Below are positions 1 through 2,319 of a DNA stretch of 2,319 bases, in pieces. The position numbers and the translations under genes are program-made. Positions within the stretch are counted from its first letter, which is position 1, and each line of letters begins with the position of its first letter. Source of the stretch: Naegleria gruberi (lineage: Eukaryota); assembly GCA_000004985.1 (NCBI GenBank), contig GG739271.1. One strand, 5' to 3'. The notes beneath the pieces are model-generated. The model was not told the DNA's origin, searched no databases, and saw nothing but the letters and a program-made list of their open reading frames with translations.

Positions 1-129
1 ATCATCTTTTAATGATGTTAATTTGATGGTTCATTTCTTGTATTGATAGATATTTAAAGGTCAGGTCAGTACTAACTTTTGAATTATGGACTTTGAGAAG
101 TCAAATGTTTGGGACGTGAATCTACTCAT

Positions 130-290
130 TAGATTGAATAGGTATTGCTAATAAAGGAACATTTCATTGATTTATTGATTATAACGGTCAAATTGAGTTG
201 AATGGAAGTGAATCTAATGTTGATTCATCGTGGATGGGTAGTTTCGCCACGAAGTGGTGCAACTACCAACCTTTGTAGATTGAATCAGGT
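130..290 (+). repeat. Dispersed direct repeat TAGATTGAAT(A/C)AGGT at 130-143 and 276-290; a second direct repeat GTGAATCTA at 116-124 and 208-216
   Basis: Read directly: tagattgaataggt at 130-143 and tagattgaatcaggt at 276-290 match at 14 of 15 positions. gtgaatcta is exact at 116-124 and 208-216. gtgaatcta is the inverse orientation of the tagatt core. The second copy pair brackets the hairpin at 237-267. Confidence 0.6.
237..267 (+). other. GC-rich interrupted stem-loop (potential RNA hairpin)
   Basis: ggtagtt (237-243) pairs with aactacc (261-267), 7 bp perfect. The inner stem cgccac (245-250) pairs with gtggtg (254-259), 5 Watson-Crick pairs plus one G.U pair, around a GAA triloop, with single unpaired nt at 244 and 260. 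It is locally much more GC-rich than its flanks. Confidence 0.5.
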
Positions 291-385
291 TGATTTGCAT
301 GCAATATGAATAAGTAACATTATCAAGAGTGATTATTCACCAATTCAATGATCAATATTCAATAATCGGTTTGATTTCAATCAAT

Positions 386-402
386 AGCTTGATCATCAAG
401 CT
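386..402. repeat. Perfect 17-bp palindrome agcttgat-c-atcaagct
   Basis: The reverse complement of agcttgat (386-393) is atcaagct (395-402), around a central C at 394. It is embedded in a run rich in ttgat/atcaa/tcaat (371-407). Confidence 0.9.
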
Positions 403-726
403 TTGAATTAATATTCCAGTAATTAACGGCAGTCTATTTTTAAATTTAATCAAAGACCATATATAGTAGCTTGACTTTTATGATGTGGAAACTATCTAGA
501 TGTGTTCTATATTGAATAATCTATTTGAAAATGAGATGAATTAACTCTTCTATTGAGTTTTATTGGTATTGGATGGTATTACGGTTATAATAATCTACAC
601 AGAACTCACTCTTGAAATATAAACTGTACTACAATGTATGAGAAACATAATGGTGGTAGAATTATTCAACAACTCGTTGAAATGACTGAGATGGAATGTA
701 AACTATGGTCTATTTGTCATGTAATG

Positions 727-1037
727 GTGACTAGACAGTGTCAATTTCATCAAATTATATCAAACTGATTACATTCAATAATAAACCGTTCTATACATCA
801 TGTGTGTCATACAGAATGAGTTTCAATATTTAATATTGTGAACTGACTCTGTTGGATACCATCTCTATAAATATAACAAGATGAAAAGTGTCAACATTCA
901 ATTACACATATGGAGTGTCACCATTGTATCATCTAGACAGATAGCATTTCAAGTTTTAGTGGAATTGACAGTCTAGATATTGAGATGTGTATTCTAAGGT
1001 TTAAGAAGTGTCACCTTCACTGATTAGTGACATGACT
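727..1037. repeat. Cluster of short degenerate direct and inverted repeats built from the motifs AGTGTCA(A/C)C..TTCA and CTAGACAG
   Basis: agtgtcaatttcat 737-750; gtgtcat 804-810; agtgtcaacattca 887-900; agtgtcaccattgt 914-927; agtgtcaccttcac 1007-1020; a partial inverted copy agtgacatg at 1026-1034. ctagacag occurs at 731-738 and 933-940. A loose inverted copy (ttgacagtctaga, 965-977) has a reverse complement matching ctagacagtgtcaa (731-744) apart from a 2-bp indel. TCTAGA sites at 494-499, 932-937 and 972-977. Confidence 0.55.
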
Positions 1038-1050
1038 ATAACAATTGAAC

Positions 1051-1129
1051 ATATGATTCTTGTATCAATAATTCATTGTTCAATGATTGTGATATGATGG
1101 TAAAATTTAATTTTGGAAATATGATTCTT
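1051..1129 (+). repeat. 11-bp exact direct repeat ATATGATTCTT at 1051-1061 and 1119-1129, spanning the 5' boundary of the LRR open frame
   Basis: Read directly. The second copy overlaps the TGA at 1122-1124 and the first LRR codons at 1125 onward. Confidence 0.6.
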
Positions 1130-1741
1130 CCCTATTGACAACCTTTCACAATTAACACTACTTAAAATAGATTATAATAGAATTAATTTAGAAAGTGCCA
1201 AATATTTAACTCGTTTACAAAAGTTAAAACATATTTCCTTATATGCTAATTTGAAATTTGAAGAGAAAGCATTGGATTATATTAATCAATTGAAAGAATT
1301 GCAATATTTAGGAGTTTACAAAAACAATATTCGTGTTAGTGGTGCTGAAAGTATAAGTAAAATGAAATATTAAATATTTGTGAAAATAACATTGGTAGTG
1401 ATGGAGCTGAACATATTAGTGAATTGAAACAATTAACAAATCTTAATATTGAAAATAATCGAATTAAAGATAACGGTGCTAAATGTATTGGTAAATTGTC
1501 TCAGTTAAAAATTCTTAATATTGCCAAAAATAGAATTACTTTTGGTGCTATGTATCTTTTAGCATTGAAACAGTTAACAAATCTTGATATTAGTAGAAAT
1601 GATTTACAAGCTTTGGGATCCTTTTTCGTTAGTGAAATGAAACAATTAACAAATCTTGATATTAGCTTGAATAATATTGGAACTCAGGGTGCTTTAAATA
1701 TTAATCAAATGAAACTAGTAAATCGTTATCGTTTTGATTGA
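1125..1741 (+). pseudogene. Leucine-rich repeat protein fragment with 24-residue RI-like LRRs; 5'-truncated and carrying a -1 frameshift near 1371
   Basis: Frame 0 is open from 1125, immediately after TGA at 1122-1124, to TAA at 1371-1373. It translates to FFPIDNLSQLTLLKIDYNRINLESAKYLTRLQKLKHISLYANLKFEEKALDYINQLKELQYLGVYKNNIRVSGAESISKMKY*. Frame 2 from about 1374 continues (NEI)LNICENNIGSDGAEHISELKQLTNLNIENNRIKDNGAKCIGKLSQLKILNIAKNRITFGAMYLLALKQLTNLDISRNDLQALGSFFVSEMKQLTNLDISLNNIGTQGALNINQMKLVNRYRFD* and contains supplied ORF 1424-1741. Both parts fit the LxxLxxLxIxxNxIgxxGaxxIsx pattern in 24-aa units. Adding one T to the run at 1369-1371 (tat taa at -> tat tta aat) joins the two frames into a continuous LRR reading ...ISKMKYLNICENNIGSDGAEHISELKQLTNL. 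There is no ATG or alternative start in frame 0 before 1251, and the first residues are already mid-repeat, so the 5' end is missing. Confidence 0.6.
1565..1665 (+). repeat. Intragenic tandem repeat at nucleotide level (72-bp period) within the LRR coding region
   Basis: ttgaaacagttaacaaatcttgatattag (1565-1593) and atgaaacaattaacaaatcttgatattag (1637-1665) match at 27 of 29 positions exactly 72 bp (one 24-aa LRR) apart. A third related copy, ttgaaacaattaacaaatctt, sits at 1424-1444, 141 bp upstream. Confidence 0.8.
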
Positions 1742-1759
1742 TCGGTTAATTTAAACAAT

Positions 1760-1765
1760 AATAAA
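1760..1765 (+). promoter_or_regulatory. Candidate poly(A) signal AATAAA for the LRR transcript
   Basis: aataaa lies 19 nt downstream of the TGA stop at 1739-1741. It sits inside the 131-bp spacer (1742-1872, over 85% AT) between the two convergent genes. Hexamers like this are common by chance in such AT-rich DNA. Confidence 0.25.
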
Positions 1766-1872
1766 TATATTAATAATAATTAAATAATATTTTAATAATC
1801 TTTATCATATAATTGTTAACAGAATTTTACACAAAATCTGTTCCAATTACATGTTATTATCTTTGTAATATT

Positions 1873-2319
1873 TTAACGTAAGTTTTGAATTGAATTGTAA
1901 ACTCGTTTAGTAACACTTGTAAAAGTACCATCATCTATTTTAGAAATTGAAACTCTTTCCATTGACTGAATAGATGCTTTGAATTTTGATTGATAAACTT
2001 GTCCTCTCTTTTCAGTTGCAAGATTAAATGGTTCCATTGGTACATTTCTATGATTATTTGTAGTAGTAATAGCACTCTTGAGTGTTGATGAATTATTAAA
2101 ATCTGGCATTGGTCTTGCCTTGAAAGAGTGTGGTAATTTTGGTCCAATAATTGTTGATGCTACACACGACGATGCTACAGATGCTGAGGAAAGAATTGAA
2201 TCTTTAAATGATGATTTAACTTTTGTAATATTTGGTGAAACTGGTACAGTAACTGGTTTGTGTAAAATCTTTGATGTATCTACATTTGTATAGTGATGAA
2301 ATGGTCTAGCTTTAAATAC
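1873..2319 (-). CDS. C-terminal part of a TPX2-family microtubule-associated protein; partial CDS that continues past the window end at 2319, stop at 1873-1875
   Basis: The minus-strand frame (plus-strand triplets ending at positions that are multiples of 3, e.g. 2107-2109) has no stop from 2319 down to TAA at 1873-1875. It translates to VFKARPFHHYTNVDTSKILHKPVTVPVSPNITKVKSSFKDSILSSASVASSCVASTIIGPKLPHSFKARPMPDFNNSSTLKSAITTTNNHRNVPMEPFNLATEKRGQVYQSKFKASIQSMERVSISKIDDGTFTSVTKRVYNSIQNLR*. The motifs FKARP(x)P(x)F (twice), KFKAS, TVPVSP and PFNLATEKR match what I recall as conserved TPX2/WVD2-family motifs (FKAxPxPxF; vertebrate TPX2 C-terminal PFxLATEKRA and TVPVSPxF). Codon usage is the same AT-biased set as the LRR gene (CCA, ACA/ACT, TCA, AGA, GGT). 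Supplied ORF 1873-2109 is just the portion after the internal Met at 2107-2109. Confidence 0.6.
   Translation of the reverse strand, partial: VFKARPFHHYTNVDTSKILHKPVTVPVSPNITKVKSSFKDSILSSASVASSCVASTIIGPKLPHSFKARPMPDFNNSSTLKSAITTTNNHRNVPMEPFNLATEKRGQVYQSKFKASIQSMERVSISKIDDGTFTSVTKRVYNSIQNLR

What the first reader, a model, noticed from the sequence alone, without database searches (positions are those of the whole stretch)
1125..1741. LRR gene copy that is both 5'-truncated and frameshifted
The LRR reading frame begins mid-repeat right after a TGA, with no start codon. No AG acceptor exists in the 100 bp upstream (1028-1124) that could splice in a 5' exon. A single missing T in the TTT run near 1369-1371 shifts the frame; restoring it yields a perfect LRR unit (ISKMKYLNICENNIGSDGAEHISELKQLTNL). 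Two independent lesions suggest a decaying paralogue of an expanded LRR family. It could instead be a homopolymer sequencing error combined with a fragment created by rearrangement or transposition. The 11-bp direct repeat ATATGATTCTT at 1051 and 1119 flanks the truncation point and may mark that rearrangement.
Basis: seen in the sequence. Interest (0 to 1): 0.5.

Follow-up and report, generated by a model that had tools for sequence, protein, structure and literature searches.

The report
Broken second copy of Naegleria LRR gene
The window is a tiny leftover scaffold of the Naegleria gruberi genome assembly carrying a near-identical second copy (probably the other chromosome's version) of a known F-box-like/leucine-rich-repeat gene; this copy has lost its first third and an 82-base internal piece, which makes it an ordinary dead gene copy.

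Summary
The LRR fragment at 1125-1741 is real. It has no start codon and changes frame at 1365-1371. The intact counterpart is Naegleria gruberi NAEGRDRAFT_62334 (342 aa). Window 1367-1738 encodes its residues 219-342 (124/124) and window 1128-1364 encodes residues 112-190 (73/79). Residues 191-218 are missing and only 2 nt lie in their place, so the lesion is an 82-nt deletion (one 24-residue LRR unit plus 10 nt). Adding a T gives a 21-residue unit, not a perfect one, and the "T run" is only TT. Residues 1-111, the family's F-box-like N-terminus, are absent. The 1124 nt upstream are non-coding. The window appears to be a whole 2319-bp unplaced scaffold of the Sanger NEG-M assembly: GenBank's partial protein XP_002668150.1 sits on a 2319-bp contig and matches it exactly. 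The convergent TPX2-like neighbour is also duplicated. Its window-type allele is found full length in an independent metagenome contig (506/509 nt) and is 99% identical to the main-scaffold gene. The best reading is an uncollapsed alternative haplotype, or a very recent duplicate, with a dead LRR allele. It is not an old decaying paralogue. A cloning or assembly artefact cannot be excluded for the two lesions. Interest is low.

The parts
1..1124 (.). Non-coding sequence unrelated to the intact gene. It sits where the 5' third of the LRR gene and its promoter should be.
   Evidence: tblastn with P0001 finds nothing from residues 1-111 in any frame. The longest stop-free run in six frames is 50 aa, against about 70 expected at random. 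No Rfam family reaches its threshold and no tRNA is found. No similarity to the LRR region beyond chance. GC is 30%.
1051..1061 (+). First copy of the 11-mer ATATGATTCTT (15/17 over 1045-1061 against 1113-1129).
   Evidence: Weakly above chance and does not extend.
1119..1129 (+). Second copy of the 11-mer. It overlaps the in-frame TGA (1122-1124) and the first LRR codons.
1128..1364 (+). LRR segment A, corresponding to residues 112-190 of NAEGRDRAFT_62334 (73/79 identical). Four of the six differences cluster in the first 7 codons (1128-1148). There is no start codon. The frame opens at 1125 just after the TGA.
   Evidence: tblastn, translation, Pfam LRR hits.
1365..1366 (+). Deletion junction. 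Two bases (AA) stand where 84 nt encoding residues 191-218 (IQLTNLNISSNFIGSEGAYYISKLPHLT) lie in the intact gene. The net loss is 82 nt, which shifts the frame.
   Evidence: One search gives the coordinates of the two matches. One search gives the unit register. The paralogue P0002 keeps this unit without a gap, so presence is ancestral.
1371..1373 (+). Premature TAA that ends frame A, two codons after the junction.
1367..1741 (+). LRR segment B, corresponding to residues 219-342 of NAEGRDRAFT_62334 (124/124 identical), plus the native stop codon TGA at 1739-1741.
   Evidence: tblastn, translation.
1742..1872 (.). Very AT-rich (14.5% GC) spacer between the two convergent genes. Positions 1811-1872 are also present in the independent contig L001.
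1873..2319 (-). 3' end (148 codons plus stop) of a TPX2-like gene that runs off the scaffold end. GenBank's partial model XP_002668150.1 (134 aa) covers 2277 down to the stop at 1873.
   Evidence: It is 147/148 identical to P0005 and 143/148 to NAEGRDRAFT_45723. P0011 matches exactly.

Best explanation
The window is an entire 2319-bp unplaced scaffold of the Naegleria gruberi NEG-M Sanger assembly. It holds a second copy, about 99% identical, of the convergent gene pair NAEGRDRAFT_62334 (F-box-like N-terminus plus nine 24-residue LRRs) and NAEGRDRAFT_45723 (TPX2-like). Both genes lie on the 941,567-bp scaffold. The second copy is most likely the other haplotype of this heterozygous diploid. 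The assembler would have kept it apart because it differs structurally.

In this copy the LRR gene is dead for two reasons:
1. Everything upstream of codon ~112 is replaced by 1.1 kb of unrelated non-coding DNA. That removes the start codon, the promoter and the N-terminal domain.
2. An 82-nt deletion removes one LRR unit plus 10 nt and shifts the frame, giving a stop two codons later.

It makes no protein and has no mechanism beyond being a null allele or pseudogene. The copy on the main scaffold supplies the function.

Shown: the identity of the scaffold, the two lesions relative to the intact protein, the duplicated neighbour, and the independent existence of the window-type neighbour allele.

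Inferred: that the copy is allelic rather than paralogous, that the two genes are adjacent on the big scaffold, and that the lesions exist in the organism and not only in the clones.
For: - Window length is 2319. The partial N. gruberi protein XP_002668150.1/EFC35406.1 lies on a 2319-bp contig and equals window-encoded residues 15-148 exactly.
- P0001 is the only close relative. It matches 124/124 and 73/79 in two different frames, with residues 191-218 missing and 2 nt between the matches. All other family members found are 36-39% identical.
- The paralogue P0002 keeps the missing unit and the N-terminal domain. Both absences are therefore losses in the window.
- The neighbour is 143/148 identical to NAEGRDRAFT_45723, which is on the same 941,567-bp scaffold as P0001. 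Their UniProt accessions are consecutive, D2V0L2 and D2V0L3.
- The window-type neighbour allele exists as a full-length 698-aa gene in an independent ENA contig, with 506/509 nt identity over window 1811-2319. It differs from the main-scaffold protein at 9 of 700 aligned positions.
- Outside the 7-codon patch at the breakpoint, LRR divergence is 2/196 residues, the same ~1% level.
- N. gruberi is described as a heterozygous diploid, and NEG-M was sequenced by Sanger into 1,977 pieces (PMC9928731).
- No protein model for the LRR fragment exists in the collection.
Against: - I could not obtain any DNA of the main scaffold. Synonymous divergence, the exact deletion end points, and the origin of 1-1124 are all untested.
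- The independent contig L001 stops at window 1811. The two LRR lesions are therefore seen only in this one low-coverage scaffold.
- The difference at 2301 (F instead of I) lies 19 nt from the scaffold end. Both other sequences disagree with the window there, which hints at imperfect base quality.
- Protein divergence of 3% in the last 148 residues of the neighbour is high for alleles.
- Read depth, the direct test of haplotig against duplicate, is unavailable.
Confidence: 0.55

Rival explanations
1. The lesions are artefacts of the draft assembly. The right part is genuine second-haplotype sequence. On this view the 1124/1125 junction comes from a chimeric plasmid clone or a mis-join, and the 82-nt loss is a deletion of tandem AT-rich repeat DNA that arose in E. 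coli. The organism would then carry two intact alleles.
For: - The scaffold is tiny and unplaced. It extends only about one Sanger read length on either side of the two structural differences: 1124 nt to the left and 954 nt to the right.
- It has a probable base error near its end at 2301.
- Neither lesion is confirmed by the independent contig, which ends at 1811.
- The homology to P0001 stops abruptly at 1125-1148.
Against: - A chimeric junction would not explain the cluster of four multi-nucleotide codon changes at 1131-1148. Those changes still keep the LRR pattern I-x-x-L-x-Q-L-T.
- Two separate artefacts within 240 nt are needed.
- The scaffold passed the assembler's criteria as a contig, and its SNPs in the neighbour are confirmed independently.
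Confidence: 0.25
2. It is a true paralogue. A recent segmental duplication copied the 3' two-thirds of the LRR gene together with the TPX2-like gene to another locus. The LRR copy was truncated at the duplication boundary and is now decaying.
For: - The copy is 5'-truncated exactly where homology ends, as expected at a duplication breakpoint.
- It carries a further inactivating deletion.
- The upstream DNA is unrelated.
Against: - The assembly's proteome holds only one full-length TPX2-like gene of this type plus this fragment.
- The window-type neighbour exists as a complete, intact gene in another sample. That fits an allele or population haplotype better than a partial duplicate.
- Divergence of about 1% is at the allelic level.
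- The scaffold could not be extended, as expected when flanking reads merge into the main haplotype.
Confidence: 0.17
3. The gene is functional. An upstream exon is spliced on, and a short intron (for example 1351-1406, GTATAAGT...GGAG, 56 nt) or ribosomal frameshifting bridges the frame change.
For: 37 GT...AG pairs would formally join the two frames without a stop, and 141 upstream ATG-exon combinations are formally possible.
Against: - No candidate splice restores the repeat register: the candidates checked by hand leave the affected repeat unit the wrong length, about 2 residues too long or too short.
- The putative intron consists of sequence identical in translation to coding sequence of the intact gene.
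- There is no AG in 1027-1168.
- Upstream ORFs are shorter than chance expectation and show no similarity to the family's N-terminus.
- There is no X XXY YYZ slippery heptamer at 1362-1373 (read).
- The annotators called no gene here.
Confidence: 0.03

Closest known systems
Naegleria gruberi NAEGRDRAFT_62334 (XP_002682485.1, UniProt D2V0L3), predicted protein, 342 aa
   Same: The window encodes its residues 112-190 (92% identical) and 219-342 (100% identical), with the same stop codon and the same convergent neighbour.
   Different: The window lacks residues 1-111 and 191-218. The two retained parts are in different frames, and there is no start codon.
F-box/LRR (FBXL-type, GALA-like 24-residue LRR) substrate-receptor proteins
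   Same: The LRR units have a 24-residue period with the L-T-x-L-x-I-x-x-N-x-I-G-x-x-G-A pattern. The best solved-structure match of the intact protein is a GALA protein, E 1.7e-22. The N-termini of 5 of 6 N. gruberi family members hit Pfam F-box or F-box-like weakly.
   Different: The window copy has no N-terminal domain at all. P0001's own N-terminus does not reach any Pfam F-box score. No biochemical evidence exists for SCF association.
Uncollapsed haplotigs in draft assemblies of heterozygous diploids
   Same: A small unplaced scaffold that is collinear with a main-scaffold locus at about 99% identity, differs by structural variants, and extends about one read length beyond them.
   Different: Allelism has not been demonstrated. 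No read-depth or positional data were available.
Unitary or duplicated pseudogenes truncated at a rearrangement breakpoint
   Same: Loss of the start codon and promoter, plus an out-of-frame internal deletion within a tandem-repeat coding region.
   Different: Divergence from the functional copy is only about 1%, and the neighbouring gene copy is apparently intact. Any decay is therefore very recent.

Membership tests
Leucine-rich repeat proteins (Pfam LRR_8/LRR_6/LRR_4) | Tandem 20-30-residue units with the LxxLxLxxN core, scoring above the Pfam gathering thresholds. | tested here: met
   For the conceptually joined translation: LRR_8 61.8 bits (cut-off 27), LRR_6 44.5 (23.4), LRR_4 43.6 (27). 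Eight anchors are spaced 21-25 residues apart.
Copy of NAEGRDRAFT_62334 (allele or recent duplicate) | Near-identity to that gene and to no other, together with conserved gene neighbourhood. | tested here: met
   Matches of 124/124 and 73/79 residues. The next-best family members are 36-39% identical. The neighbour is 143/148 identical to NAEGRDRAFT_45723 on the same 941,567-bp scaffold.
Intact protein-coding gene | A start codon and one uninterrupted reading frame (or supported splice sites) covering the homologous region. | tested here: not met
   No ATG in frame A before 1362. TGA at 1122-1124, TAA at 1371-1373, and a frame change at 1365-1366. No AG in 1027-1168.
Single-base (homopolymer) frameshift | Adding or removing one base restores collinearity with the intact homologue. 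| tested here: not met
   After adding a T, 27 codons are still missing relative to P0001, and the repaired unit has 21 residues instead of 24. The run is TT, not TTT.
F-box/LRR (FBXL-like) proteins | An N-terminal F-box of about 45 residues preceding the LRR domain. | tested here: not met
   The window has no counterpart of P0001 residues 1-111. For the intact family the feature is only weakly supported: Pfam F-box or F-box-like in 5 of 6 N-termini, best E 5e-4, and none for P0001 itself.
Processed (retrotransposed) pseudogene | A copy limited to the mRNA, followed by a poly(A) tract, without the flanking genomic DNA of the parent. | tested here: not met
   The copy includes the parent's intergenic spacer and the convergent neighbouring gene. 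No poly(A) tract follows the stop codon.
Alternative haplotype (haplotig) | Same chromosomal position as the primary copy, with half-depth read coverage on both copies. | not testable with these tools
   No reads or main-scaffold DNA were available. Support is indirect only: about 1% divergence, shared neighbour, and a heterozygous diploid genome (PMC9928731).
Programmed ribosomal frameshift site | A slippery heptamer (X XXY YYZ for -1) or a shift-prone stop context, conserved in homologues. | tested here: not met
   The sequence at 1360-1380 is AAATGAAATATTAAATATTTG and contains no such heptamer. The homologue P0001 reads straight through an extra 28 residues instead.

The most novel reading that the evidence does not exclude
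The 1.1 kb upstream of 1125 could be the edge of an uncharacterised, non-coding repetitive or mobile element of Naegleria. Such an element might have inserted into, or mediated a deletion of, the F-box-like/LRR gene in one haplotype. That would explain why the scaffold could not be extended. The four same-strand AGTGTCA(A/C)(C/T)NT motifs at 737-1017 might be part of it. This would be a heterozygous gene knockout driven by a structural variant in a sexual amoeba.
Probability: 0.12. Interest if true: 0.3.

Novelty: new member of a known kind. Interest (0 to 1): 0.12.

Why it matters
It matters little for biology. At most it documents that N. gruberi NEG-M carries, besides an intact F-box-like/LRR gene, a null version destroyed by a 5' replacement and an out-of-register repeat deletion. 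Tandem-repeat genes commonly die this way.

Its practical value is for annotation. The 2319-bp scaffold is redundant with a locus on a 941-kb scaffold and should be treated as a haplotig or low-confidence piece. The partial protein XP_002668150.1 is an allele fragment of NAEGRDRAFT_45723, not a separate gene.

It also shows that a frameshift which "one base fixes" inside a repeat protein can hide a much larger deletion.

Tried and rejected
Attempts to obtain DNA of the intact locus:
- Exact look-ups of P0001, P0002, P0010 and P0011 found nothing on record.
- Scans for relatives of P0001 in JGI metagenomes and IMG/VR found nothing.
- Synonymous divergence, the deletion end points and the origin of 1-1124 therefore could not be determined.

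Attempts to find the same lesions in other data:
- Exact look-ups of four window ORFs found nothing.
- A metagenome scan for the 31-nt hairpin sequence at 237-267 found nothing.

A search blind spot:
- The word-indexed protein search missed the neighbour's relatives. The full HMMER search found them. Absences are therefore not absolute.

Ideas considered and rejected:
- Giant-virus origin: no viral locus, and the window matches N. gruberi nuclear genes.
- An RNA gene or tRNA in the window: nothing above threshold in Rfam and nothing from ARAGORN.
- A degenerate LRR or gene remnant upstream: alignment scores are at chance level and ORFs are shorter than random.
- A gradient of divergence suggesting gene conversion: 6/79 against 0/124 gives Fisher p = 0.003. 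This vanishes once the 7-codon patch at the breakpoint is set aside (2/72 against 0/124, p = 0.13).
- Splicing rescue: many formal GT-AG pairs exist but none is supported.

Literature:
- A search for PRJEB11402 found no paper.
- The 2010 genome paper is not held.

Full report
**Observation**

The window is 2319 nt long with 28% GC. An LRR-coding frame opens at 1125, immediately after a TGA at 1122-1124, and runs to a TAA at 1371-1373. It contains no ATG before 1362. A second frame, offset by +2, is open from 1367 to the TGA at 1739-1741 and also encodes LRR units. The conceptually joined product passes the Pfam gathering scores for LRR_8, LRR_6 and LRR_4. There is no AG between 1027 and 1168, and ATATGATTCTT occurs at 1051 and 1119.

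**The intact counterpart and the real lesion**

A search of 5.8 billion proteins returned one close relative, P0001. This is Naegleria gruberi NAEGRDRAFT_62334 / XP_002682485.1 / D2V0L3, 342 aa, on a 941,567-bp scaffold. All other family members found, all from N. gruberi, are only 36-39% identical.

tblastn of P0001 against the window gave these results:

| Window | P0001 residues | Identity |
|---|---|---|
| 1128-1364 | 112-190 | 73/79 |
| 1365-1366 (AA) | 191-218 | missing |
| 1367-1738 (other frame) | 219-342 | 124/124 |

- Residues 191-218 (IQLTNLNISSNFIGSEGAYYISKLPHLT) have no counterpart. Eighty-four nucleotides of the intact gene are therefore represented by two, a net 82-nt deletion.
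- The more distant paralogue P0002 aligns across this unit without a gap. Presence is therefore ancestral and the window carries a loss.
- The LRR anchors of P0001 are spaced 23-25 residues apart. The repaired unit is therefore not perfect.
- The "T run" at the site is TT within TATTAA.
- The deletion equals one 24-residue unit plus 10 nt. It is out of register, so it is not a clean unequal exchange between units.

**The 5' end**

- No part of P0001 residues 1-111 is detectable in any frame of the window.
- That N-terminal region is conserved among the N. gruberi paralogues.
- It hits Pfam F-box or F-box-like weakly in five of six members, though not in P0001 itself.
- The best solved-structure match of the LRR part is a GALA protein. 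From established knowledge of GALA and FBXL proteins, the intact family therefore looks like F-box/LRR substrate receptors. This is an inference.
- Homology to P0001 fades within 1128-1148, where four of seven codons differ, each by at least two bases. The LRR pattern I-x-x-L-x-Q-L-T is nevertheless kept.
- Upstream, 1-1124 is non-coding. The longest stop-free run is 50 aa against about 70 expected. There is no Rfam match above threshold and no tRNA. There is no similarity to the LRR region beyond chance.
- The 11-mer repeat extends only to 15/17, and 4% of shuffles reach its alignment score. A closely spaced 11-mer pair with one copy within 15 nt of 1125 arises in 0.6% of randomisations, but that test is post hoc. 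I do not regard the repeat as evidence of a mechanism.

**What the window is**

- The minus-strand ORF from 2319 down to 1876 (stop at 1873-1875) has TPX2 motifs.
- The word-indexed search missed its relatives. A full HMMER search found P0005, which is 147/148 identical to the window ORF.
- The 90% identity cluster of P0005 contains two other proteins:
  - P0010 = NAEGRDRAFT_45723 / D2V0L2, 699 aa, on the same 941,567-bp scaffold as P0001. Its UniProt accession is consecutive with P0001's.
  - P0011 = XP_002668150.1, "predicted protein, partial [Naegleria gruberi]", 134 aa, on a contig of 2319 bp.
- P0011 equals window-encoded residues 15-148 exactly, and the window is 2319 nt long. The window is therefore a whole small unplaced scaffold of the NEG-M assembly.
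- NEG-M was sequenced by Sanger, so homopolymer errors of the 454 or nanopore kind are not expected (PMC9928731 Table 1).
- The scaffold duplicates the 3' ends of a convergent gene pair that also exists, intact, on a large scaffold. Adjacency there is inferred from the shared scaffold and the consecutive accessions.

**Allele, paralogue or artefact**

- The window's TPX2-like segment differs from the main-scaffold protein at four residues plus one single-residue indel in 148.
- Three of these substitutions and the indel are shared by P0005. P0005 is encoded full length on an independent ENA metagenome contig, L001 (ERZ929261, PRJEB11402).
- L001 matches window 2319-1811 at 506/509 nt. The three mismatches are:
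  - a non-synonymous one at 2301, 19 nt from the scaffold end, where both other sequences agree against the window;
  - a synonymous one at 2152;
  - one at 1847 in the spacer.
- The right-hand part of the window is therefore a genuine biological haplotype belonging to a complete gene. Over its full length it is 691/700 identical to the main-scaffold protein.
- LRR divergence outside the breakpoint patch is 2/196 residues, the same level.
- N. gruberi is described as a heterozygous diploid (PMC9928731).
- The scaffold reaches only about one Sanger read length beyond the two structural differences. That is expected if only reads spanning those differences failed to merge with the main haplotype.

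My estimates are as follows:

| Reading | Probability |
|---|---|
| Uncollapsed alternative haplotype with a dead LRR allele | about 0.55 |
| LRR lesions are clone or assembly artefacts on genuine second-haplotype sequence | about 0.25 |
| Very recent segmental duplicate | about 0.17 |
| Functional gene rescued by splicing or frameshifting | about 0.03 |

- L001 ends at 1811, so the two LRR lesions are not independently confirmed. That is why the artefact reading stays open.
- On the functional reading, many GT-AG pairs are formally possible but none restores the repeat register. There is also no acceptor in 1027-1168, no slippery site, and no homologous upstream exon.

**How it works**

As it stands in the sequence, the LRR fragment cannot be translated into a family-like protein. 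It lacks promoter-proximal sequence, a start codon and the N-terminal domain, and its frame terminates two codons after the deletion junction. It is a null copy. The function, presumably substrate recognition in an SCF-type ligase (inferred), is supplied by NAEGRDRAFT_62334 on the main scaffold.

**Comparison and novelty**

- This is a defective allele or pseudogene of a known predicted gene, in a public scaffold where the fragment is not annotated.
- It is not a processed pseudogene, because the parent's spacer and neighbour are included.
- It is not a single-base frameshift.
- It is not an old member of the expanded family.
- It is an ordinary, unannotated instance of a well-known kind of feature, and it may partly reflect draft-assembly redundancy. 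Interest is low.

**What could not be done**

No DNA of the main scaffold or reads of NEG-M were reachable. The exact deletion end points, synonymous divergence, the origin of 1-1124 and the allelic status remain untested. The decisive analyses are listed under next steps.

Noticed in passing
window 737-747, 887-897, 914-924, 1007-1017 (+ strand): The motif AGTGTCA(A/C)(C/T)NT occurs four times, all on the same strand, within 280 nt of the non-coding upstream region. Dinucleotide shuffles give 0.04 expected, but the pattern was chosen post hoc. The flanks do not align.
   Followed up: partly
window 237-267: An imperfect hairpin, GGTAGTT-TCGCCAC-GAA-GTGGTGC-AACTACC, lies in the GC-richest part of the upstream region. 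Its folding z-score is only -2.2. No Rfam or tRNA match and no exact match in JGI metagenomes.
   Followed up: partly
window 2299-2301 (minus-strand codon): The window encodes Phe where both the main-scaffold protein and the independent contig L001 encode Ile. The site is 19 nt from the scaffold end. It is probably a low-quality base call, and GenBank's partial model starts downstream of it, at 2277.
   Followed up: yes
L001 1-2316 (ENA ERZ929261, run ERR1078381, project PRJEB11402, contig k127_225201): An assembly labelled as a metagenome contains a complete N. gruberi-type TPX2-like gene 99.4% identical in DNA to the window. The sample therefore held N. gruberi or a very close strain. No paper mentioning the project was found.
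   Followed up: partly
window 1873-2319 (-) and proteins P0005-P0008: The TPX2-like neighbour has full-length homologues in Naegleria lovaniensis (C9374_007228) and Willaertia magna, and in a JGI metagenome (40-44% identity). It is a conserved heterolobosean gene. XP_002668150.1 is therefore a redundant allele fragment of NAEGRDRAFT_45723 rather than a separate gene.
   Followed up: partly
tool behaviour: The word-indexed protein search returned no hit for the 148-aa neighbour, although a 99%-identical representative (P0005) is in the collection. Negative results from that tool should not be read as absence.
   Followed up: yes
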